A DNA stretch of 39,734 nt from a bacterium (GTDB lineage Bacteria > Patescibacteriota > Patescibacteriia > UBA1558 > S5-K13): the NCBI GenBank assembly GCA_021106915.1, contig JAIOTH010000019.1, positions 1 through 39,734 on the forward strand, given 5' to 3'. Shown here one piece after another: positions 9,152 to 39,283 of the stretch (position 1 is its first letter; every line of letters begins with the position of its first letter). Below the pieces are notes generated by a model. That model was not told where the DNA came from. It was given only the letters and a program-made list of their open reading frames with translations, and ran no database searches. Both the position numbers and the translations under genes were made by a program.

Positions 9152-10006
9152 TTAATCAGATGACAAATCTATCCAATTCTCTATTGTTAATTTTTCAGCT
9201 CGGATATTTTTAGCTAGACCAACTCGCTCTAACATTTTATAAATTTCCTCTTTTTCGATTTTTAAACCTGTGCTTAAATTATTAACCAAAGTTCTTCTCT
9301 TAGAAGAAAAACCTATTTTAACTAATTGCCAAAATCGCTTTTGATCAACTTCCGCCCTAGGGTGACCTCGAAGGTCAAATCTGATAACCGCGGAATCAAC
9401 TTTTGGTATTGGTAAAAAATTATTTTTAGAAACCGTAAATAAATATTCTGGTTGCGAATAAAAATTACACATCACTGAAAGTTTAGACCATTTACCATCT
9501 TTATTAATTATCCGTTCTGCCACCTCTTTTTGAAGCATTAAAATCATTTCTTTTGGTGGATTTTGATGTCCTAAAATAATTCTCAAAAATCGAGAGGTAA
9601 TATTGTATGGTAAATTAGAAACTATTTTATAATTTTTTAAAAAGTCGGCTGACAAAATTTTAGATAAATCTAATTTTAAAATATCTCCTTGAATAATCTC
9701 GAAAGTTTGATCATCCAAAATCTTTAAAATTTTAATTAATTCTTCATCCAGTTCAATAGTTTTTAAATTTATCCCTGTCGCCTTTTTTGAGGCGAGGGGA
9801 TAAACATTTTTTTTAACCAAAGCTTTAGTTAAAGTTCCAATTCCCGGACCAATTTCTAAAACATTTTCATTTGGTTTTAAATTAGCTACTTGAATTATTT
9901 TTTCCAAAATTTCTTCAGAAATTAAAAAATTTTGCCCTTTAGATTTCTGGAGCAAAATTCTATTTTGTTTTAACAAAAGTTTTGTTTCTTCTAAGATACT
10001 AATCAT
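9152..10006 (-). CDS. rsmA: 16S rRNA (adenine1518/1519-N6)-dimethyltransferase
   Basis: It shows the KsgA/RsmA signature QNFLISEEILEKII...VLEIGPGIGTLTKAL plus the NLPYNITS motif. It carries a ~12-aa in-frame insert (VYPLASKKATG) encoded by a GC-rich hairpin at 9772..9800. Confidence 0.9.
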   Translation of the reverse strand: MISILEETKLLLKQNRILLQKSKGQNFLISEEILEKIIQVANLKPNENVLEIGPGIGTLTKALVKKNVYPLASKKATGINLKTIELDEELIKILKILDDQTFEIIQGDILKLDLSKILSADFLKNYKIVSNLPYNITSRFLRIILGHQNPPKEMILMLQKEVAERIINKDGKWSKLSVMCNFYSQPEYLFTVSKNNFLPIPKVDSAVIRFDLRGHPRAEVDQKRFWQLVKIGFSSKRRTLVNNLSTGLKIEKEEIYKMLERVGLAKNIRAEKLTIENWIDLSSD

Positions 10007-10031
10007 ACGAATTATTAGTACTAATATATTT

Positions 10032-10118
10032 CCCCCTTGTCACCTGCCTGCCGGCAGGCAGGAAGGGGGTTAAGGGGATTGAATTTTAAATAAAATTATT
10101 AAACCCCCTAAATCCCCC
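10032..10118. repeat. GC-rich palindromic repeat cluster
   Basis: The sequence cccccttgtcacctgcctgccggcaggcaggaaggggg forms a long hairpin. A second inverted pair is present: ttaaggggatt ... aatcccccttaa. The cluster is intergenic between rsmA and the MFS gene. Confidence 0.8.
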
Positions 10119-10198
10119 TTAACAGGGGGACTTAAAAATTCAAATACTTACCATAAACTGATTTCTAATTCATAATAAATTTATAAATTGGTATCACA

Positions 10199-11564: not shown

Positions 11565-12386
11565 TTATTTTTCTTCAAGTTTCTTCTGTTCTGGCAAAAA
11601 ATTATCATTAGAAATTACTTTTTTACCACTTTCTATTTCTAATTTTTGACGAGCGTCTCCGGCAATTTTTCCACCGTCCTTAGAGTCTTTTTTAAGTTCT
11701 TTAAAGCCTTGCGAATTTCTGCTTTTAGTTATTTCAGTTGTAGAAGCTTCACCAAGCATAGAAAAAATTAACTCTAAATCAGTCATATGGTCTCGAAGAT
11801 TTTCTCGATCCAATCCTTTAAAATCTTGATACTCACTAGGAATCATTCCAAAAGTTGCTTTAGAAATTTCAGCTGTTAAAATAGCATAATTTTTTTGTTC
11901 TTTTACTCCTCTGTTATCCCATTCACCTGTTAATTGTTCACGTATGGCAATTCCTCGCATTCGTTTTTCAATCCAGTTATCAGGATAACCCTTTGCTTTA
12001 TACAAAGCTCTGGTTCGTTTAGTGGCTAATTCAGGGTCTTCAATTTCTTGTACTCTTTCATAACCGACTTTAGCAAGCCAACGTTTAAATGGTTCTGCTT
12101 TGGGCGATGGGATAGATTGAATAATTCTAAAAATACCTTCTGTATTAGCACAGTCAGTTTCCCTCATTTTTCCGTCCGGAGATTGTAATTTCAACTGTCC
12201 GATTTTCTCGGACACTTCAAAAAAACCTTCCTCTATAAGCTTTTTCTTTAAATCGTTCCAATATTTTCGTGCTCGATTTGTTTCTGTTAGTATTTCAATA
12301 ATATCAACAACTGAAAACCACCATTCATTTTCATAAATAGTTTTTCTAATCTTTTTTCCTTTAAAAACTGCTAATTTTGTATTCAT
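11565..12386 (-). CDS. Bro-N domain / DinD-like (prophage antirepressor family) protein
   Basis: The N-terminus FKGKKIRKTIYENEWWFSVVDIIEILTE...ARKYWNDLKKKL fits the Bro-N pattern. The C-terminal half resembles DNA-damage-inducible protein D. Confidence 0.7.
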   Translation of the reverse strand: MNTKLAVFKGKKIRKTIYENEWWFSVVDIIEILTETNRARKYWNDLKKKLIEEGFFEVSEKIGQLKLQSPDGKMRETDCANTEGIFRIIQSIPSPKAEPFKRWLAKVGYERVQEIEDPELATKRTRALYKAKGYPDNWIEKRMRGIAIREQLTGEWDNRGVKEQKNYAILTAEISKATFGMIPSEYQDFKGLDRENLRDHMTDLELIFSMLGEASTTEITKSRNSQGFKELKKDSKDGGKIAGDARQKLEIESGKKVISNDNFLPEQKKLEEK

Positions 12387-12395
12387 AAAATTATT

Positions 12396-15300
12396 TTACT
12401 TGTCTGCCGATAGGCAGGTAACAATATTCACAATCTTTCCCTTAATATAAATAAATTTAACAATTTCCTTGCCATCAATAAATCTCTGCACATTTTCTAA
12501 TCCTAAAATTTGTTTTTTTAAATCATCTTCGGAAATATCAACCTCTATTTCTAGAGTAGCTCGTAATTTTCCGTTAATTTGAATAGGTAAATTTATTTTA
12601 TCTTCTACAATTAATTTTTCATCATACTTTGGCCATTCTTGCCGACAAATAAATCCCTCGTTTCCCAATTTTTGCCAAATTTCTTCACAAATATGCGGAG
12701 CAAAAGCAGAAAGCATAATTAAATAAGAATCAACTAAAGTCTTGTCAGGACTGTTTAAAGAACTTAATATTTTTAAACAAACCATCAAAGAACTAATTGC
12801 TGTATTAAATCTAAAATTTTCAATATCTTCTGTAACTTTTTTAATTGTTTTGTGTAATATTGAAACAACTTGATTATTAGATTCATCACCATAATTAATG
12901 TCTGAAAAATATCTCCAATTCTTATCTAGAAATCTTCGCAAACCTTTAATACCATCTATATTCCAAGGTTTTGAGTCTTCTAAAGGACCCATAAACATTT
13001 CATACATTCGGAAACTATCCGCACCATATTCCTCAACGACTTCATCGGGATTTACGACATTACCTAAAGATTTACTCATTTTTTGACCATCCGTTCCCAT
13101 AATTAAACCTTGATTAATCAACTTTAAAAATGGTTCATCAAAATCCCCACCTTCGCCAAGGCTACGGTCGGCAGGCAAATATCCATTATCTCTCAAAACT
13201 TTAGTAAAAAATCTAGAATAAATTAAATGGCCAACAGCATGTTCAGTTCCACCGACGTAAGTATCAACTGGCATATATTTTTTAATCAAATCTTTAGCAC
13301 AAAATTCTTTTTCATTCTGAGAATCTAAATAACGATAATAATACCAAGAATTATCTACAAAACCATCCATAGTATCATGTTCCCTAATTGCTTCTCCACC
13401 ACATTTCGGACATTGCACATTCTTATTAAATTCTTTTGATAAAGCTAAAGGTGGCTGACCAGTTGGTCGAAAATCCTGAACATCATCAGGCAATAAAACT
13501 GGCAAATCTTTTTCTGGCACTGGCACAGCTCCACATTTTGGACAATGAATAATCGGAATTGGAGCTCCCCAATATCTTTGACGAGAAACTAACCAATCAC
13601 GAAGTTTATATTGTGTAGTTAATTTTCCACCAGCTTTTTTAGTAATTTTCTGCTGAGCTTTTTCTGAATCCATTCCATCAAATTCTTCGGAATTTATCAT
13701 TTTCCCCTGAGCTTCTGTGGCTCGAATTTTTTCTTCAATATCAGAAATAATTTCTGGCAACTCGAAAACACTAACCCTACTATCACTAATATTAATGTGT
13801 CCTTTATTTTTTAAAACTCTATATTCACCTGGTAATTTTTCCACTAATTGTTTCTGTTGCTTATCAGATGTGTAAGGATCATCATCAGAAAAATAAGCAT
13901 AAATTTTTTCTACATTTGATTTAATATTTTGATAATTTAATTGATAATCAGTAAATTTACGCAATATCTCAATCTGCTCTTTTGTAAAATTCTCTTTAAT
14001 ACTCTCTGTTCTAGTCTGATCATCAACCATAAATTCTGAAACTGGAGCTACTAAAAATAATTTATTAATTTTTATTTTCTGAGCTAAATGCTGAGCTGCA
14101 AAAGCTCCCATACTGTGACCAATTATAATATCATCTTCTGCAAAATCCTGAACTAATGATTCTAAAATCTTTAACCAATCTTTTAAAATTGGATTTTTAG
14201 TATCTGGTAAATCTGGAACTAAAACTTCATAATTTAATTTTTCTAACTCCTTCTTTAACCACGGAAACCAATCATCTTTACTAGTCGCCATAAAGCCATG
14301 AACGATTAAAACCTTAGTCTTTCGTTGAGATTGTACTACATCAATAATTGATAAATTAAATTTCTGAGCAAATTCAAAATCTCGTTGATCATGAGCTGGA
14401 ACACACATTATTGCTCCAGTTCCATAGGTAGCTAAAACATAATCAGAAATATATACTGGTAATTCTTTTCCATTAACTGGATTAATAGCTTTAATTCCTT
14501 TTAGCTCTACTCCAGTTTTATTTTTATTCAAATCAGTTCTTTCTAAGTCACTTTTTTTCTTAGTAGTTTCAATATATTTTTCTACTTCTGAAAAATTTTC
14601 GATGCTAATTTTTAATTCCTGAACTAATTGATGCTCGGGAGCTAAAACCATATAAGTTGCTCCATATAAAGTATCAGGTCGCGTAGTAAAAACTTTTATC
14701 CCTAACGCCTCTTCTGAGGTGGGGGGATTAATTATTTTAGGTAAAATTAATTCTTTTAAAACATTGGCTTGACACTCAAACTCTTTGAAAAAATCTTCTG
14801 CTGTATTTTCAAAAAATCTTTTTCCACTTACTTTAGAATAATATAAATTTTTCATTGGAAAATAAATATCCAAATCACCTGCTTGCTGATCAGTTAAAAT
14901 ATAATCTCTTCTATTTTTAATTTGTTGATGCTCTCCATTGGGATATAGAATTGTCCAAAAATCTTCATAATAAAATTCTTTTTCTCCACCATTCTTCTGA
15001 GCAATATTCTTATAAAATTCTAAAGCTTTTTCAGCAATTTCTTCTTGAGTCAAATTCTTTTCATCAACTCCTTTTAAACAAGACCTTTTTGGAGCTAAAG
15101 GATCGACTTCATCTTCATTGCTAAAAAATACAGCTGTATCCATAGACAAAACTGGTACATCATATTTTCCTTGATAAGGATCTGTCTTCTTTAAAGAATT
15201 TTCCCAAGCATCTTGACCATTTTCCTCTACATCAACATAATCCGGAACTTGTTCAATTTTAATTTGAGGATCAATTTTTTTAAATAATTTTTTTAATCTT

Positions 15301-16118
15301 TCTAATTTAGACTTATTCCCCGTCGCAAAATATATTTTTTTGGAATTTGGAATTTGGAATTTACCTGCCTGTCCGGTAGGCAGGGAATTTGTTTGAAATT
15401 TGTTATTTGTTATTTGGAATTTGATTTCTGCTCCTTCTGATTTCCCAATCCAATTCTTTTGCATTGTTTTTAAAGCATGAGACCATTCCAATTTGTCTAA
15501 TCCTTCTAAAAGTTCATCAGCATATTCTGTCACTTTAAAAAACCATTGTTTTAAATCTTTTTTAATCACTTCATTCTTGCAACGCTCACATTTTCCATCA
15601 ACAACTTGTTCGTTTGCTAAAACAGTCTGACAAGAGTCACACCAATTCACTGGAGCTTTTTTCTGATAAGCTAAATTATTCTTGTATAATAGAAGAAAAA
15701 ACCACTGCGACCATTTATAATAGCTAGGATCAGAAGTATTTATTTCTCGCTCCCAATCATAAGAAAATCCTAAACTTTTAATTTGTTTAGTAAAATTAAC
15801 AATGTTTTCCGCAGTACTCTTCTTAGGGTGCACGCCAATTTTAATCGCATAATTTTCCGCCGGCAAACCAAAAGCATCCCAACCCATTGGATGAATTACC
15901 TCATAATTATTCATTCGTAAATAACGAGAATAAATATCAGTAGCAGTATAACCCTCAGGATGACCAACATGTAACCCTGCTCCAGAAGGATAAGGAAACA
16001 TATCTAAAACATACTTTTTTTCTTTCTGAGAATTTTTGTCAACTTTAAAAACATGATCCTTTTCCCATTTATCTTGCCACTTTTTTTCTATTTTTTGATG
16101 ATTATAATTTTGTTCCAT
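12396..16118 (-). CDS. leuS: Leucyl-tRNA synthetase with two foreign domains inserted around the CP1 editing domain
   Basis: It has the class I HIGH motif (HVGHPEGY) and KMSKS motif (KMSKSLGN), the editing-domain blocks TTRPDTLYGATY and GTGAIMCVPAHDQRDFEFA, and the C-terminal tRNA-binding tail. It is 1240 aa, compared with ~860 aa in E. coli. Confidence 0.95.
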   Translation of the reverse strand: MEQNYNHQKIEKKWQDKWEKDHVFKVDKNSQKEKKYVLDMFPYPSGAGLHVGHPEGYTATDIYSRYLRMNNYEVIHPMGWDAFGLPAENYAIKIGVHPKKSTAENIVNFTKQIKSLGFSYDWEREINTSDPSYYKWSQWFFLLLYKNNLAYQKKAPVNWCDSCQTVLANEQVVDGKCERCKNEVIKKDLKQWFFKVTEYADELLEGLDKLEWSHALKTMQKNWIGKSEGAEIKFQITNNKFQTNSLPTGQAGKFQIPNSKKIYFATGNKSKLERLKKLFKKIDPQIKIEQVPDYVDVEENGQDAWENSLKKTDPYQGKYDVPVLSMDTAVFFSNEDEVDPLAPKRSCLKGVDEKNLTQEEIAEKALEFYKNIAQKNGGEKEFYYEDFWTILYPNGEHQQIKNRRDYILTDQQAGDLDIYFPMKNLYYSKVSGKRFFENTAEDFFKEFECQANVLKELILPKIINPPTSEEALGIKVFTTRPDTLYGATYMVLAPEHQLVQELKISIENFSEVEKYIETTKKKSDLERTDLNKNKTGVELKGIKAINPVNGKELPVYISDYVLATYGTGAIMCVPAHDQRDFEFAQKFNLSIIDVVQSQRKTKVLIVHGFMATSKDDWFPWLKKELEKLNYEVLVPDLPDTKNPILKDWLKILESLVQDFAEDDIIIGHSMGAFAAQHLAQKIKINKLFLVAPVSEFMVDDQTRTESIKENFTKEQIEILRKFTDYQLNYQNIKSNVEKIYAYFSDDDPYTSDKQQKQLVEKLPGEYRVLKNKGHINISDSRVSVFELPEIISDIEEKIRATEAQGKMINSEEFDGMDSEKAQQKITKKAGGKLTTQYKLRDWLVSRQRYWGAPIPIIHCPKCGAVPVPEKDLPVLLPDDVQDFRPTGQPPLALSKEFNKNVQCPKCGGEAIREHDTMDGFVDNSWYYYRYLDSQNEKEFCAKDLIKKYMPVDTYVGGTEHAVGHLIYSRFFTKVLRDNGYLPADRSLGEGGDFDEPFLKLINQGLIMGTDGQKMSKSLGNVVNPDEVVEEYGADSFRMYEMFMGPLEDSKPWNIDGIKGLRRFLDKNWRYFSDINYGDESNNQVVSILHKTIKKVTEDIENFRFNTAISSLMVCLKILSSLNSPDKTLVDSYLIMLSAFAPHICEEIWQKLGNEGFICRQEWPKYDEKLIVEDKINLPIQINGKLRATLEIEVDISEDDLKKQILGLENVQRFIDGKEIVKFIYIKGKIVNIVTCLSADK
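13704..14333 (-). other. Alpha/beta serine hydrolase (YdeN/RBBP9-like) domain inserted in LeuRS (aa ~596-805)
   Basis: KVLIVHGFMATSKDDWFPWLKKELEKLNYEVLVPDLP is followed by the nucleophile elbow GHSMG, then FSDDDPY (Asp) and NKGHIN (His). The insert lies between HDQRDFEFAQKFNLSIIDVV and the KLRDWLVSRQRYWG block. Confidence 0.75.
14748..15341 (-). other. ITPase/Ham1/RdgB-like domain inserted in LeuRS (aa ~260-457)
   Basis: KIYFATGNKSKLERLKKLF matches the family motif ATGNxxKxxE. EENGQDAWENSLKK parallels RdgB EETGLTFIENAILKA. PVLSMDTAVF parallels PAIADDSGLAV. The insert lies between the GAEIKFQI and IKVFTTRPDT blocks, which are ~10 aa apart in E. coli LeuRS. Confidence 0.7.
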
Positions 16119-18740: not shown

Positions 18741-18848
18741 TGTCCTCCTACGCCACTTCCTTCGCTTCCTCTTTCGCTGAAGCTATAGAGGACAAGAAAG
18801 CTACGAAAGTCAAGAAGGCTTCGTAGGACATCCTTCGCAAGCGAAGGA
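18741..18848. repeat. GC-rich multi-hairpin repeat cluster immediately 3' of tRNA-Lys
   Basis: There is a perfect hairpin catccttcgc-aa-gcgaaggatg directly after the tRNA CCA end. A ctacgaa...ttcgtag hairpin and a gcttc...gaagc hairpin follow. This explains the spurious ORF 18748..18981. Confidence 0.6.
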
Positions 18849-18924
18849 TGGTGCCCTCAGCAGGACTTGAACCTGCGACCGTTTGCTTAAGAGGCAACTG
18901 CTCTACCAACTGAGCTATAAGGGC
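18849..18924 (-). tRNA. tRNA-Lys (anticodon CTT), CCA encoded
   Basis: The minus strand reads GCCCTTATAGCTCAGTTGGTAGAGCAGTTGCCTCTTAAGCAAACGGTCGCAGGTTCAAGTCCTGCTGAGGGCACCA. The cloverleaf folds by hand with a 7-bp acceptor stem, a GCAGG/CCTGC T-stem and a CTCTTAA anticodon loop. Confidence 0.9.
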
Positions 18925-18928
18925 AAAA

Positions 18929-19005
18929 TGGTACACCCGGCAGGGCTCGAACCTGCAACCTCTTGGTCCGAAGCCAAGCACTCTATCCAGTTGAGCTACG
19001 GGTGC
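18929..19005 (-). tRNA. tRNA-Arg (anticodon TCG), CCA encoded
   Basis: The minus strand reads GCACCCGTAGCTCAACTGGATAGAGTGCTTGGCTTCGGACCAAGAGGTTGCAGGTTCGAGCCCTGCCGGGTGTACCA. It has a CTTGG/CCAAG anticodon stem and a CTTCGGA loop. Confidence 0.9.
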
Positions 19006-25358: not shown

Positions 25359-25416
25359 TTGTCATTCCGGGCTTATTTATTTACATTGTCATTCCGGGCT
25401 TGACCCGGAATCTCAA
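25359..25416. repeat. GC-rich hairpin repeat (GTCATTCCGGGCTTGACCCGGAATCTC family), one partial plus one full copy
   Basis: The partial copy gtcattccgggctta is followed by the full copy tgtcattccgggcttgacccggaatctca. Confidence 0.85.
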
Positions 25417-25785: not shown

Positions 25786-26033
25786 TCGTCATTCCGGGCT
25801 TGAGGGTCTGTCCCAGCGTTAGCGAGGGTATCCGGAATCTCAATTTCAATGTTTAGTGGTATTAGAGATCCTATCGTCATTCCGGGCTTGACCCGCCTGC
25901 CTGCCGGTAGGCAGGGAATCTCGAGATCCTGAACAGATTGAGATCCTGAGTCAAGCTCAGGATGACATTGTTCAGGATGACATGGTTCAGGAAGACACGG
26001 TTTCAAGCTCAGGATAACATGGTTCAGGATGAA
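25786..26033. repeat. Mosaic cluster of at least three GC-rich hairpin repeat families, including one element nested inside another
   Basis: gtcattccgggcttgaGGGTCTGTCCCAGCGTTAGCGAGGGTAtccggaatctc is followed by gtcattccgggcttgaccc[gcctgcctgccggtaggcag]ggaatctc. Then come gatcctgagtcaagctcaggatgaca and degenerate ggttcaggatgaca tandems. Confidence 0.9.
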
Positions 26034-39228: not shown

Positions 39229-39283
39229 TAGTTGGTAGTTTGTAGTTTTTAGCTACCAACTAAAAACTACAAACTACCAACTA
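39229..39283. repeat. Perfect 24-bp inverted repeat with 7-nt loop in the mraY-murD spacer
   Basis: The sequence is tagttggtagtttgtagtttttag-ctaccaa-ctaaaaactacaaactaccaacta. It ends 5 nt before the murD ATG. Confidence 0.9.

What the first reader, a model, noticed from the sequence alone, without database searches (positions are those of the whole stretch)
12396..16118. Chimeric LeuRS: ITPase/Ham1-like and alpha/beta serine-hydrolase domains inserted in-frame on both sides of the CP1 editing domain
**Seen in the sequence.**
- The ORF is 1240 aa. By my alignment from memory to E. coli LeuRS (860 aa), all core blocks are present.
- About 237 aa are inserted between GAEIKFQI and IKVFTTRPDT (aa ~237-473).
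- About 210 aa are inserted between HDQRDFEFAQKF...DVV and the KLRDWLVSRQRYWG block (aa ~596-805).
- Insert 1 has ATGNKSKLE, EENG..ENSLKK and SMDTA, the hallmark blocks of the RdgB/Ham1 non-canonical NTP pyrophosphatase fold.
- Insert 2 has HG..W..WL, GHSMG, an Asp-rich strand and a GH motif, the Ser-Asp-His layout of YdeN/RBBP9-type serine hydrolases.
- Insert 1 begins with a GC-rich palindromic repeat read in-frame (SLPTGQAG) flanked by intergenic-style word repeats (KFQITNNKFQTN, KFQIPNSK). This hints that formerly separate genes were welded together.

**Inference.** A serine esterase next to the editing site could act on aminoacyl esters as extra proofreading. The ITPase fold could sanitise or hydrolyse nucleotides or adenylates. 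Alternatively the enzyme is simply a tolerated fusion. I know of no described LeuRS with these inserts.
Basis: partly seen in the sequence, partly recalled or inferred. Interest (0 to 1): 0.7.

Follow-up and report, generated by a model that had tools for sequence, protein, structure and literature searches.

The report
LeuRS with two inserted hydrolase domains
This is a real, intact leucyl-tRNA synthetase from a tiny-genome (Patescibacteria/CPR) bacterium whose proofreading domain carries two extra, apparently active hydrolase enzymes, and it belongs to a wider, seemingly undescribed pattern in which these bacteria repeatedly plug interchangeable hydrolase modules into the same few loops of this one essential enzyme.

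Summary
**Observation: confirmed.**
- 12396..16118 (-) is one uninterrupted 1240-aa bacterial-type LeuRS. HIGH, KMSKS and the CP1 editing motifs are intact.
- Insert 1 (aa 237-473) is a complete but divergent Ham1/ITPase fold.
- Insert 2 (aa ~598-799) is an RBBP9/YdeN-type hydrolase with triad Ser669/Asp747/His774.

- Both inserts lie inside CP1, not on either side of it.
- The GC-rich palindrome is not a fusion scar. It is a REP-like repeat with three copies in the window (two intergenic). It sits in a 13-aa extra segment that all 11 orthologs carrying the same insert lack.

**Not an artefact.** Eleven full-length orthologs come from independent assemblies. Synteny is shared with an insert-less 801-aa ortholog. 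dN/dS of the inserts (0.08, 0.12) equals that of the core.

**Wider pattern.** Patescibacteria LeuRS have three insertion hotspots carrying Ser-hydrolase (sites A, B or C), Ham1-like (A), NUDIX (B) or an IS200-type transposase domain (A), in many combinations. There is evidence for cassette replacement.

**Function (inferred).** Most likely these are cis-tethered accessory hydrolases acting on aminoacyl esters, adenylates and nucleotides. Passive hitch-hiking in permissive loops remains a strong rival.

**Literature.** Ten full-text searches found no description.

The parts
12396..16118 (-). leuS ORF, 1240 aa plus stop: bacterial-type leucyl-tRNA synthetase with two inserted domains
   Evidence: One search gives the ORF. 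One search gives TIGR00396 at 996 bits. One search gives 1H3N at E 2.5e-217. One search finds the motifs HVGH50, KMSKS1013, TTRPDT478 and AHDQRD575.
15411..16118 (-). N-terminal half of the catalytic (Rossmann) domain, including the HIGH motif, the first zinc knuckles and the beta-strand leading into CP1 (aa 1-236)
   Evidence: Searches align aa 3-238 to T. thermophilus LeuRS residues 2-238.
14700..15410 (-). Insert 1 as a whole (aa 237-473), at hotspot A in the N-terminal hairpin of CP1
   Evidence: it is absent from the insert-less orthologs P0012-P0019.
15363..15401 (-). 13-aa in-frame mini-insert KFQTNSLPTGQAG (aa 240-252). It carries the REP-like GC-rich palindrome at 15364-15384.
   Evidence: absent from all 11 orthologs with the same Ham1 insert; repeat family; pLDDT below 50, a disordered linker.
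14736..15341 (-). Divergent Ham1/ITPase-fold domain (aa 260-461)
   Evidence: PF01725 at 27-31 bits; stand-alone subfamily P0121-P0139; conserved N268, K271, E299, N307, K311, D327, R345; pLDDT 94. Foldseek hits to Ham1/RdgB/ITPA at TM 0.6-0.77.
14700..14735 (-). Second small variable linker IINPPTSEEALG (aa 462-473). It is GC-rich and shared only with P0003 and P0007.
   Evidence: pLDDT below 50 at aa 462-467.
14328..14699 (-). CP1 editing domain, main part (aa 474-597), with the T-rich motif TTRPDT and the catalytic Asp577
   Evidence: PF13603 profile positions 20-146; invariant columns. Foldseek hits to LeuRS CP1 structures.
13722..14324 (-). Insert 2: RBBP9/YdeN-type alpha/beta serine hydrolase (aa 599-799) at hotspot B. 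Triad Ser669, Asp747, His774.
   Evidence: PF06821 at E 2e-20. RBBP9 at 1e-13 and YdeN at 2e-12. TM 0.80-0.85; triad conserved.
13605..13721 (-). C-terminal part of CP1 (aa 800-838)
   Evidence: PF13603 profile positions 148-183; aligns with insert-less orthologs.
12399..13604 (-). Second half of the catalytic domain (KMSKS at aa 1013), the anticodon-binding domain and the C-terminal domain (aa 839-1240). There is no leucine-specific domain.
10043..10062 (.). Second copy of the CCTGCC..GGCAGG palindrome. It is intergenic, between the RrnaAD-like and MFS genes.
25896..25915 (.). Third copy of the palindrome. It is intergenic, upstream of a lepA-like ORF and among other GC-rich hairpins.

Best explanation
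**Shown.**
- This is the chromosomal, functional LeuRS of a Patescibacteria (CPR) bacterium.
- Two surface loops of its CP1 editing domain each carry a complete, independently folding hydrolase domain that keeps its catalytic residues.
  - Hotspot A carries a divergent Ham1/ITPase-fold domain. It keeps the phosphate- and metal-binding residues but has lost the canonical hypoxanthine/xanthine recognition motifs.
  - Hotspot B carries an RBBP9/YdeN-type Ser-Asp-His hydrolase.
- The core synthetic and editing sites are intact, so the inserts add functions rather than replace them.
- The enzyme belongs to a lineage-wide modular system with three hotspots (A, B, C). These accept Ser-hydrolase, Ham1-like, NUDIX or Y1-transposase domains in many combinations.
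- Patterns of identity indicate repeated capture or replacement of cassettes.

**Inferred.**
- The cassettes are functionally coupled to LeuRS as cis-tethered accessory hydrolases.
- The RBBP9-like domain would hydrolyse alpha-aminoacyl esters or acyl compounds that have a free amine. Candidates are a mischarged tRNA-Leu 3' end, or a non-cognate aminoacyl-adenylate or a non-hydrolysable mimic of one.
- The Ham1-like domain (NUDIX in other lineages) would cleave the alpha-beta phosphoanhydride of a nucleotide substrate near the enzyme. Candidates are a non-canonical NTP or an adenylate-type compound.
- Together they would give extra quality control, or detoxification, at an enzyme that handles aminoacyl-AMP and aminoacyl-tRNA.
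For: **Architecture and reality.**
- The ORF is uninterrupted.
- LeuRS family scores are far above cutoff and the motifs are intact.
- CP1 catalytic columns are invariant in 50 LeuRS, with or without inserts.
- The folds are established.
- There are 11 full-length orthologs at 66-82% identity from NCBI, JGI, ENA and Logan.
- Synteny is conserved: M23/LysM, leuS, MFS, RrnaAD. It is shared by the two-insert ortholog (952-kb contig) and by an insert-less 801-aa ortholog.

**Selection.**
- dN/dS is 0.081 for insert 1 and 0.122 for insert 2, against 0.07-0.15 for the core.
- Across 43 embedded hydrolase copies at all three sites, Ser is kept in 43, Asp in 42 and His in 41.
- The Ham1 phosphate/metal residues are invariant across embedded and free versions.
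- NUDIX boxes are intact in the NUDIX carriers.

**Coupling to LeuRS.**
- The same hydrolase family is found at three different sites in or next to CP1, sometimes twice in one protein.
- Of 19 multi-domain hosts sampled from an exhaustive search of 1.84 billion representatives, 12 are LeuRS and none is another synthetase.
- Two unrelated folds that, by established knowledge of the families, share one chemistry (NTP to NMP + PPi) recur in the same enzyme: Ham1-like at site A and NUDIX at site B.

**Chemistry.**
- RBBP9 is a serine aminopeptidase that requires a free alpha-amine and forms an aminoacyl-enzyme (PMC8866121).
- It is cited by title as a valacyclovir (valyl ester of a nucleoside analogue) activating enzyme (reference list in PMC7730578).
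Against: - No biochemical data exist for any of these proteins.
- CP1's own editing site is intact, so there is no obvious proofreading gap to fill.
- Close relatives at the same locus do well with no insert. Distribution is patchy even within a clade whose cores are 80-89% identical.
- An IS200-type transposase domain and REP-like hairpins use the same loops. This suggests the sites may simply tolerate insertions.
- Both domain families exist mainly as free-standing proteins with no known tRNA link.
- RBBP9's alpha-amine anchor Glu108 is not obviously conserved in the sequence alignment.
I therefore could not tell whether the inserts' active sites face the CP1 pocket or the path of the tRNA CCA end.
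Confidence: 0.45

Rival explanations
1. **Passenger domains.** The inserts are autonomous housekeeping enzymes: a house-cleaning nucleotide pyrophosphatase and a small esterase or aminopeptidase. They landed in permissive CP1 surface loops and are kept for their own activities. LeuRS only supplies expression and a scaffold, with no mechanistic coupling to leucylation or editing.
For: - Full-length free-standing relatives exist for both domains.
- Flexible, low-confidence linkers flank insert 1.
- The same loops also accept a Y1 transposase domain and REP-like hairpins.
- Insert-less orthologs sit at the same locus.
- Combinations are patchy.
- The Ser_hydrolase domain is also fused to L22, to peptidase S51 and to other hydrolases.
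- Purifying selection fits this reading as well as it fits functional coupling.
Against: - Host bias is strong. LeuRS is the only synthetase among the sampled hosts and accounts for 12 of 19.
- The hydrolase family appears at three distinct LeuRS sites.
- Two analogous NTP-pyrophosphatase folds converge on the same enzyme.
- IleRS and ValRS have comparable CP1 loops (by established knowledge of the families), yet neither appears among the sampled hosts.
Confidence: 0.35
2. **Regulatory or sensor modules.** The Ham1-like domain has lost canonical base recognition. It acts as a nucleotide sensor, as (by my recollection) the Ham1-like subunit of the KomBC defence complex does with dITP, and modulates CP1 movement or LeuRS activity. 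The hydrolase domain acts as a ligand-binding or regulatory module rather than as an enzyme.
For: - Foldseek also hits KomBC complexes (9xvc, 8zsg, 9v0g) at TM 0.54-0.69.
- The FGYDP and SHR motifs are replaced.
- Insertion is at the CP1 hinge hairpin. From my knowledge of E. coli and T. thermophilus LeuRS structures, rigid-body rotation there gates the switch between aminoacylation and editing.
Against: - The catalytic metal- and phosphate-binding residues of Ham1 and the full Ser-Asp-His triad are strictly conserved. A pure sensor would not be expected to keep them.
- Neither insert matches a PADLOC defence model convincingly.
Confidence: 0.08
3. **Fusion scar.** Three formerly adjacent genes were welded together, and the GC-rich palindrome with its flanking word repeats is the remnant of an intergenic terminator at the junction.
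For: - The palindrome is of an intergenic type: two other copies are intergenic.
- It lies at the N-terminal junction of insert 1.
Against: - All 11 orthologs with the same insert at the same site lack the 13-aa segment. It therefore arrived after the insertion.
- The domain is nested inside a hairpin loop of CP1, not joined end to end with it.
- Insert-less syntenic genomes have no Ham1-like or hydrolase gene next to leuS.
- The palindrome is absent from the orthologous loci.
Confidence: 0.03
4. **Artefact.** The ORF is an assembly chimera, an unrecognised frameshift or pseudogene, or an intein-type selfish element that is spliced out of the protein.
For: None beyond the unusual length.
Against: - The same architecture appears in 11 or more independent assemblies from four sources, and the closest ortholog was read on 24 contigs.
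- dN/dS is low across both junction-flanked inserts.
- Pfam shows no Hint, intein or homing-endonuclease domain.
- The inserts are homologous to ordinary enzymes.
Confidence: 0.01

Closest known systems
Canonical bacterial LeuRS with CP1 editing domain (E. coli 4AQ7/4ARC, T. thermophilus 1H3N/2BYT)
   Same: - The whole core is colinear, with E 2.5e-217 to 1H3N.
- HIGH, KMSKS, the T-rich editing motif, the catalytic Asp and the zinc knuckles are all present.
- The CP1 fold is recovered.
   Different: - About 430 extra residues form two additional enzyme domains nested in CP1 loops, between Tt residues 238/240 and 363/374.
- The leucine-specific domain (Tt residues ~578-637) is absent.
RBBP9 / B. 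subtilis YdeN serine hydrolases (Pfam PF06821; PDB 2QS9, 7OEX, 9FCR, 1UXO)
   Same: - The fold matches at TM 0.80-0.85.
- Ser-Asp-His are aligned with RBBP9 Ser75/Asp138/His165, and the size (~190 aa) is the same.
- The family's known chemistry is removal of an aminoacyl group with a free alpha-amine.
   Different: - It is embedded inside another enzyme instead of free-standing.
- Identity is 26%.
- The residue aligned with RBBP9's alpha-amine anchor Glu108 is not acidic in the sequence alignment.
- The substrate is unknown.
RdgB / Ham1 / ITPA non-canonical purine NTP pyrophosphatases (PF01725; PDB 4BNQ, 1VP2, 2Q16, 2J4E)
   Same: - The full fold matches at TM 0.6-0.77 over about 200 columns.
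- The TGNxxK, E-x-G...EN..K and D(T/S) motifs and the Arg aligned with the canonical SAR Arg are conserved.
   Different: - Sequence similarity is confined to the N-terminal third, at about 55 bits.
- The FGYDP and SHR base-recognition motifs are replaced.
- It belongs to a small divergent subfamily of about 20 clusters of 200-215-aa proteins.
- It is embedded in LeuRS.
Cis and trans editing modules of other synthetases (ProRS INS/YbaK, AlaXp, ThrRS N2, DTD-like domain of archaeal ThrRS) and NCBIfam NF040702 'isoleucine--tRNA ligase, N-acetyltransferase domain-containing'
   Same: - The concept is the same: an extra catalytic domain appended to or inserted in a synthetase, acting on aminoacyl-tRNA or adenylates (established knowledge).
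- The NF040702 model appears in the NCBIfam list. It shows that synthetases with additional enzyme domains are recognised by curators.
   Different: - The folds differ (alpha/beta serine hydrolase, Ham1, NUDIX).
- They are nested in an editing domain that is already functional.
- Content is combinatorial and variable between close relatives.
- No activity on tRNA has been shown.
Rickettsia palindromic elements and REP-type repeats that insert in frame into genes
   Same: - It is a short, GC-rich, hairpin-forming repeat present in several copies, mostly intergenic.
- One copy is read in frame in an essential gene, at a surface linker.
   Different: - It is much shorter: a palindrome of about 21 nt within a 39-nt insertion.
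- Only three copies were seen in 39.7 kb.
- No associated transposase was identified.
- The comparison with RPE rests on my own knowledge and was not tested.

Membership tests
Bacterial-type leucyl-tRNA synthetase (TIGR00396 leuS_bact) | Whole-protein score above the curated cutoff and colinearity with solved LeuRS | tested here: met
   996 bits against a cutoff of 548. E 2.5e-217 to 1H3N in four colinear blocks.
Bacterial-type leucyl-tRNA synthetase (TIGR00396 leuS_bact) | Class I signature motifs HIGH and KMSKS | tested here: met
   HVGH at aa 50 and KMSKS at aa 1013.
Bacterial-type leucyl-tRNA synthetase (TIGR00396 leuS_bact) | CP1 editing domain with the T-rich motif and the catalytic Asp | tested here: met
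   PF13603 at 200 bits. TTRPDT at 478 and AHDQRD at 575. These columns are invariant in 50 sequences.
Bacterial-type leucyl-tRNA synthetase (TIGR00396 leuS_bact) | Leucylation of tRNA-Leu and hydrolysis of mischarged tRNA-Leu | not testable with these tools
   Requires enzymology.
Ham1/RdgB/ITPase (Pfam PF01725) | Pfam gathering score | tested here: met
   27.3-31.3 bits against a cutoff of 22.5, but only profile positions 1-71 of 186 are matched.
Ham1/RdgB/ITPase (Pfam PF01725) | Complete Ham1 fold | tested here: met
   AF2 pLDDT 94 and pTM 0.86. Foldseek probability 1.0, TM 0.6-0.77 to 4bnq, 1vp2, 2q16, 1v7r and 2j4e.
Ham1/RdgB/ITPase (Pfam PF01725) | Phosphate- and Mg-binding residues (TGNxxK, acidic E, EN..K, D of DDSGL/EDT, Arg of SAR) | tested here: met
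   N268, K271, E299, N307, K311 and R345 are invariant. A265 and D327 are at least 90% conserved across 29 embedded, free and canonical sequences.
Ham1/RdgB/ITPase (Pfam PF01725) | Purine (hypoxanthine/xanthine) recognition motifs FGYDP and SHR | tested here: not met
   They are replaced by DIYFPM..LYYS, and there is no SHR, in the whole divergent subfamily. It should therefore not be called an ITP/XTP pyrophosphatase.
Ham1/RdgB/ITPase (Pfam PF01725) | NTP pyrophosphohydrolase activity | not testable with these tools
   Requires an assay.
RBBP9/YdeN serine hydrolase (Pfam PF06821) | Pfam gathering score over nearly the whole model | tested here: met
   69-74 bits against a cutoff of 22, covering profile positions 1-157 of 172.
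RBBP9/YdeN serine hydrolase (Pfam PF06821) | Ser-Asp-His triad in a GHSxG nucleophile elbow | tested here: met
   Ser669, Asp747 and His774 align to RBBP9 S75, D138 and H165. They are conserved in 43/43, 42/43 and 41/43 embedded copies.
RBBP9/YdeN serine hydrolase (Pfam PF06821) | Compact ~190-aa alpha/beta fold | tested here: met
   Foldseek TMt 0.80-0.85 and rmsd 2.4-2.9 to 2qs9, 7oex, 9fcr and 1uxo.
RBBP9/YdeN serine hydrolase (Pfam PF06821) | Alpha-amine anchoring acidic residue (RBBP9 Glu108) and aminoacyl-cleaving activity | tested here: inconclusive
   In the phmmer alignment Glu108 aligns to Thr, with Asp-Asp two to three positions earlier, in a variable loop. Activity cannot be tested here.
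REP-like / in-frame palindromic repeat element | Several near-identical hairpin copies in one genome, mostly intergenic | tested here: met
   Three copies in 39.7 kb, at 10043, 15364 and 25896, two of them intergenic. Zero were expected by shuffling for the exact 21-mer.
REP-like / in-frame palindromic repeat element | Presence or absence polymorphism at orthologous sites | tested here: met
   Absent from 11 orthologous proteins and from the orthologous loci.
REP-like / in-frame palindromic repeat element | Associated RAYT/Y1 transposase in the same genome | not tested
   None was seen in the window, and the whole genome is not available.
Intein or homing-endonuclease insertion | Hint/intein splicing domain or LAGLIDADG/HNH endonuclease domain in the insert | tested here: not met
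   Pfam shows no such family at E<=1. Both inserts are ordinary enzyme folds.

The most novel reading that the evidence does not exclude
Patescibacteria use LeuRS as a docking platform for interchangeable catalytic cassettes at three fixed hotspots: an RBBP9-type aminoacyl hydrolase plus a Ham1-like or NUDIX nucleotide pyrophosphatase. The cassettes are gained, swapped and lost between close relatives. Together they would form a cis-acting immunity or quality-control layer that destroys toxic or erroneous aminoacyl-adenylate-type molecules, or mischarged tRNA, at the enzyme those molecules target. Natural LeuRS-directed adenylate mimics are one possible substrate. This would be a new class of synthetase-embedded proofreading or antibiotic-resistance modules. 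Its turnover would resemble that of an arms race rather than that of a housekeeping function.
Probability: 0.2. Interest if true: 0.85.

Novelty: new variant of a known kind. Interest (0 to 1): 0.66.

Why it matters
- Synthetase editing domains are textbook examples of fixed, ancient architecture. Here an essential enzyme's editing domain behaves as a modular scaffold. Close relatives at one syntenic locus carry zero, one or two extra enzymes, drawn from at least three catalytic families and placed at three hotspots.
- If the RBBP9-type domain acts on aminoacyl esters, it would be a new kind of cis proofreading or detoxifying module. It would also point to a native substrate class for the poorly understood RBBP9/YdeN family.
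- If the domains are only passengers, the case is still useful. It would be a natural map of permissive insertion sites in LeuRS, and an example of how ultra-small genomes package accessory enzymes.
- Ham1-like and NUDIX domains, which catalyse the same type of reaction, recur in the same host protein. That gives a directly testable hypothesis about nucleotide or adenylate hygiene at a synthetase.

Tried and rejected
- **Assembly chimera, frameshift or pseudogene: rejected.**
- **Intein or homing endonuclease: rejected.** Pfam shows no such domains.
- **Palindrome as fusion scar: rejected.**
  - My first mismatch-only search for the palindrome found a single copy, because the other copies differ by an indel. 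A hairpin scan found them.
- **Insert 1 searched as a single sequence.** The word-indexed protein search returned only two proteins. An alignment query was needed to reach the subfamily.
- **Defence-system and phage-family scans of both inserts.** Nothing significant.
- **Stand-alone domain genes beside leuS in an insert-less syntenic genome.** None found.
- **Other synthetases as hosts of the hydrolase domain.** None among the 19 multi-domain hosts checked.
- **A conserved Glu in the motif [ST]EF as a possible alpha-amine anchor.** It is conserved only in this clade, so I dropped it.
- **Ten literature searches.** None found a description of these LeuRS. PMC8629427 and PMC4138327 were opened and were not relevant.
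- **NJ trees of the insert domains.** They have no support values and long deep branches. I use them only together with the pairwise identities.
- **Packing of the inserts against the CP1 pocket.** This could not be examined, because model coordinates are not returned.

Full report
**1. The observation**

The minus-strand ORF 12396..16118 is uninterrupted, has an ATG start and encodes 1240 aa. It is a bacterial-type LeuRS. It scores 996 bits on TIGR00396 (cutoff 548). It aligns to T. thermophilus LeuRS 1H3N at E 2.5e-217 in four colinear blocks. The functional motifs are all present: HVGH50, KMSKS1013, the editing T-rich motif TTRPDT478, the editing Asp in AHDQRD575, and four CxxC knuckles.

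Two blocks have no counterpart in canonical LeuRS.
- Insert 1 is aa 237-473.
- Insert 2 is aa ~598-799.

An alignment with 120 homologs gives net insert lengths of 231 aa and ~191 aa relative to an insert-less relative. GC content across the ORF is uniform at 0.26-0.38.

**2. Where the inserts sit**

The title's 'on both sides of CP1' is wrong.
- The Pfam LeuRS editing-domain model PF13603 is matched by aa 471-601 (profile positions 20-146) and again by aa ~800-835 (profile positions 148-183).
- In insert-less or differently arranged LeuRS, the same model starts about 20 positions earlier, before site A.
- On 1H3N, insert 1 falls between residues 238 and 240, and insert 2 between residues 363 and 374.
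- From memory, the T. thermophilus editing domain spans roughly residues 224-417. Both inserts are therefore nested in CP1 loops.
- The enzyme lacks the T. thermophilus leucine-specific domain.

**3. What the inserts are**

*Insert 2* is an RBBP9/YdeN-type alpha/beta serine hydrolase.
- It scores E 2e-20 on PF06821. It matches RBBP9 chains at 1e-13 and YdeN at 2e-12.
- Ser669, Asp747 and His774 align to RBBP9 Ser75, Asp138 and His165.
- In an AF2 model of the whole CP1 module (pLDDT 88.9, pTM 0.70), this part superposes on 2qs9, 7oex, 9fcr and 1uxo with TM 0.80-0.85. The CP1 part superposes on LeuRS editing-domain structures.

*Insert 1* is a divergent but complete Ham1 fold.
- It matches Pfam Ham1p_like above its cutoff, but only over profile positions 1-71 of 186.
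- An alignment-based search found a small subfamily of free-standing 200-215-aa proteins that are similar over their whole length (187-323 bits). Canonical XTP/dITP diphosphatases score about 55 bits, on the N-terminal third only.
- AF2 gives pLDDT 94 and pTM 0.86. Foldseek places the model firmly among Ham1/RdgB/ITPA structures, at TM 0.6-0.77 over about 200 columns.
- The phosphate- and metal-binding residues are invariant: N268, K271, E299, N307, K311, D327 and R345. The FGYDP and SHR base-recognition motifs are replaced.
- I therefore read it as a Ham1-fold nucleotide hydrolase of unknown specificity, not as an ITPase.

**4. It is real, orthologous and under selection**

- Eleven full-length proteins (1201-1238 aa, 66-82% identity) from NCBI, JGI, ENA and Logan have the same two inserts. 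The closest was read on 24 contigs, one of 952 kb.
- The gene order M23/LysM peptidase, leuS, MFS, RrnaAD, TSP3, giant ORF is shared by the window, by the two-insert ortholog and by an 801-aa ortholog with no insert. This is one chromosomal gene seen with zero or two inserts.
- Against the closest ortholog's DNA, dN/dS is 0.081 for insert 1 and 0.122 for insert 2, compared with 0.069-0.147 for core regions.
- CP1 catalytic columns are invariant in 50 LeuRS, with or without inserts.

**5. The palindrome**

- The 13-aa segment KFQTNSLPTGQAG that contains the palindrome is absent from all 11 orthologs carrying the same Ham1-like insert.
- Near-identical palindromes occur at 10043-10062 and 25896-25915. 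Both are intergenic and lie among other GC-rich hairpins.
- The motif is absent from the orthologous loci.
- In the AF2 model there are two internal segments with pLDDT below 50. One is this segment (aa 242-253). The other is a second small variable linker (aa 462-467, within IINPPTSEEALG), which is shared only with P0003 and P0007.
- The palindrome is therefore a REP-like repeat that inserted in frame into a disordered linker after the domain insertion. It is not a weld scar.

**6. The wider pattern**

Local HMMs, a NUDIX-box scan and Pfam were run on the 121 LeuRS. They show three hotspots, given in query coordinates: A at about aa 237-242, B at about aa 597-800, and C at about aa 862-866, just after the CPKCG knuckle.

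| Site | Domains found |
|---|---|
| A | Ham1-like, Ser_hydrolase, or an IS200-type Y1 transposase domain |
| B | Ser_hydrolase or NUDIX |
| C | Ser_hydrolase |

Architecture counts among the 121 sequences:

| Architecture | Count |
|---|---|
| No insert | 49 |
| SerH@A | 15 |
| Ham1@A + SerH@B | 13 |
| SerH@B | 11 |
| NUDIX@B | 9 |
| SerH@A + NUDIX@B | 6 |
| Y1Tnp@A | 3 |
| NUDIX@B + SerH@C | 2 |
| Ham1@A; SerH@A + SerH@B; Ham1@A + NUDIX@B; SerH@C | 1 each |
| Unassigned insert | 9 |

This sample is ranked by similarity to an insert-bearing query, so the counts are not prevalences. Further arrangements came from the exhaustive search: Ham1@A + SerH@C, NUDIX and SerH together between the two CP1 segments (site-B region), and two SerH at A plus NUDIX.

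The hydrolase triad is kept in 43/43 (Ser), 42/43 (Asp) and 41/43 (His) embedded copies.

Of 19 multi-domain hosts of insert-2 relatives taken from a search of 1.84 billion representatives, 12 are LeuRS or LeuRS fragments. None is another synthetase. The rest are fusions to L22, peptidase S51, other hydrolases or unknown regions.

**7. Cassette dynamics**

- Within the two-insert clade the core is 80-89% identical. Insert 1 ranges from 34% to 88% identity and insert 2 from 52% to 81%, and the two do not track each other. P0005 has 35% for insert 1 and 81% for insert 2. P0002 has 88% and 53%.
- The query's insert 1 is 62-63% identical to a free-standing protein (P0121), but only 35% identical to insert 1 of P0005, P0010 and P0011. 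Each embedded class has a free-standing relative closer to it than the other embedded classes are.
- P0121 lies on a contig with archaeal marker genes (S17e, tRNA-splicing endonuclease, TrmB).
- This indicates repeated capture or replacement at site A. The NJ trees are unsupported and are used only as illustration.

**8. Mechanism**

*Shown.* The enzyme is an intact LeuRS with two extra domains that keep their catalytic residues and are under purifying selection.

*Inferred.* The domains are functionally coupled to LeuRS. Three arguments support this.
- There is a strong host bias towards LeuRS.
- The same hydrolase family was acquired at three sites in or next to CP1.
- Two unrelated folds recur in the same enzyme. 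Both cleave NTP to NMP + PPi (established knowledge of the families).

The family chemistry fits. RBBP9 is a serine aminopeptidase that needs a free alpha-amine (PMC8866121). It is also cited by title as a valacyclovir (valyl-ester) activating enzyme. That is the kind of bond found in aminoacyl-tRNA, and the kind of aminoacyl moiety found in aminoacyl-adenylates and their mimics.

The main rival is passive hitch-hiking in permissive loops. Several observations support it.
- Insert-less orthologs exist.
- A transposase domain and REP-like hairpins use the same loops.
- Both domains have free-standing family members.

I put coupling at 0.45 and passengers at 0.35. A sensor or regulatory role is at 0.08, and it is weakened by the conserved catalytic residues. 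I give 0.20 to a more specific and more novel version, immunity against adenylate-mimic toxins, which would fit the patchy, fast-turnover distribution.

**9. Novelty**

These proteins are in public databases, labelled simply as leucine--tRNA ligase. Ten full-text searches found no paper describing LeuRS with these inserts. The library does not cover most subscription journals.

I rate it a new variant of a known kind. The enzyme and the domain families are known. The nested, combinatorial architecture and its dynamics appear to be undescribed.

Noticed in passing
window 10000-10135 and 25830-25960: Both intergenic regions hold clusters of different GC-rich hairpins in a genome of 29% GC. Examples are TCCCCCTTAACAGGGGGA at 10113 and ATTCCGGGCTTGACCCGGAAT at 25391, alongside the CCTGCC..GGCAGG copies. 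They look like a family of REP-like modules.
   Followed up: partly
window 14700-14735 (Q aa 462-473); proteins P0003, P0007, P0004, P0009: There are other small in-frame extras in the same gene family. INPPTSEEALG sits at the C-terminal junction of insert 1 in Q, P0003 and P0007, but not in the closest ortholog P0001. PSFAKASEGM sits inside the Ham1-like domain of P0004 and P0009. They are probably further short repeat insertions. Only Q's DNA was inspected, and there it is GC-rich.
   Followed up: partly
window 11565-12386 (-): A Bro-N gene that is strongly phage-like (phrog_15286 at E 8e-91, with anti-repressor-like hits) lies 9 nt downstream of leuS. It is absent from the otherwise syntenic loci L087 and L088, so it is a window-specific insertion between leuS and the MFS gene.
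   Followed up: partly
proteins P0046, P0065, P0069 (Patescibacteria LeuRS, e.g. Falkowbacteria): An IS200-type Y1 transposase domain (PF01797, E 1e-12 to 6e-16) is encoded in frame at hotspot A of LeuRS. Whether the HUH and Tyr catalytic residues are intact, and whether hairpins flank it, was not checked.
   Followed up: partly
L001 5001-5609; L012 5983-9012; L036: The closest free-standing relative of insert 1 (63% identity) is on a contig with archaeal marker genes (S17e, tRNA-splicing endonuclease, TrmB). MAGs labelled Nanoarchaeota and Woesearchaeota encode bacterial-type LeuRS. The L012 copy (1009 aa) carries the Ser-hydrolase at site B. This suggests exchange between CPR bacteria and DPANN archaea, or mis-binning.
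   Followed up: partly
L029 5143-11585: In a Saccharibacteria MAG the LeuRS match spans 5.5 kb and is broken into several ORFs (479, 277, 482 and 508 aa). It could be a split or interrupted leuS, or a much larger insertion.
   Followed up: no
proteins P0281, P0300, P0346; L003 5001-6253: The PF06821 hydrolase is also fused to ribosomal protein L22 (P0281), to peptidase S51 (P0300), and to NUDIX plus another alpha/beta hydrolase (P0346). A free-standing Ham1-like gene (P0122) is immediately followed by a peptidase S51 gene on a contig rich in mobile-element genes (relaxase, sortase, methyltransferase).
   Followed up: no
window 1695-8135 (-): Two very large ORFs (914 aa and 1218 aa) have no Pfam match at E<=1e-4. 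The syntenic loci carry ORFs of about 3000 aa at the corresponding position.
   Followed up: no
window 39229-39283: A 55-nt AT-rich near-perfect palindrome (24-bp arms, 7-nt loop) lies near the end of the window.
   Followed up: no
L007, L008, L009, L011 record titles: The closest genomes are titled 'uncultured Gammaproteobacteria bacterium' (binchicken MAGs). Gene content, 29% GC and all other relatives point to Patescibacteria, so this is probably a taxonomic mislabel.
   Followed up: no
window 18852-19005 (-): Two adjacent tRNA genes are the only Rfam matches in the window. A 9-bp-stem hairpin at 18829-18850 lies directly beside them.
   Followed up: no
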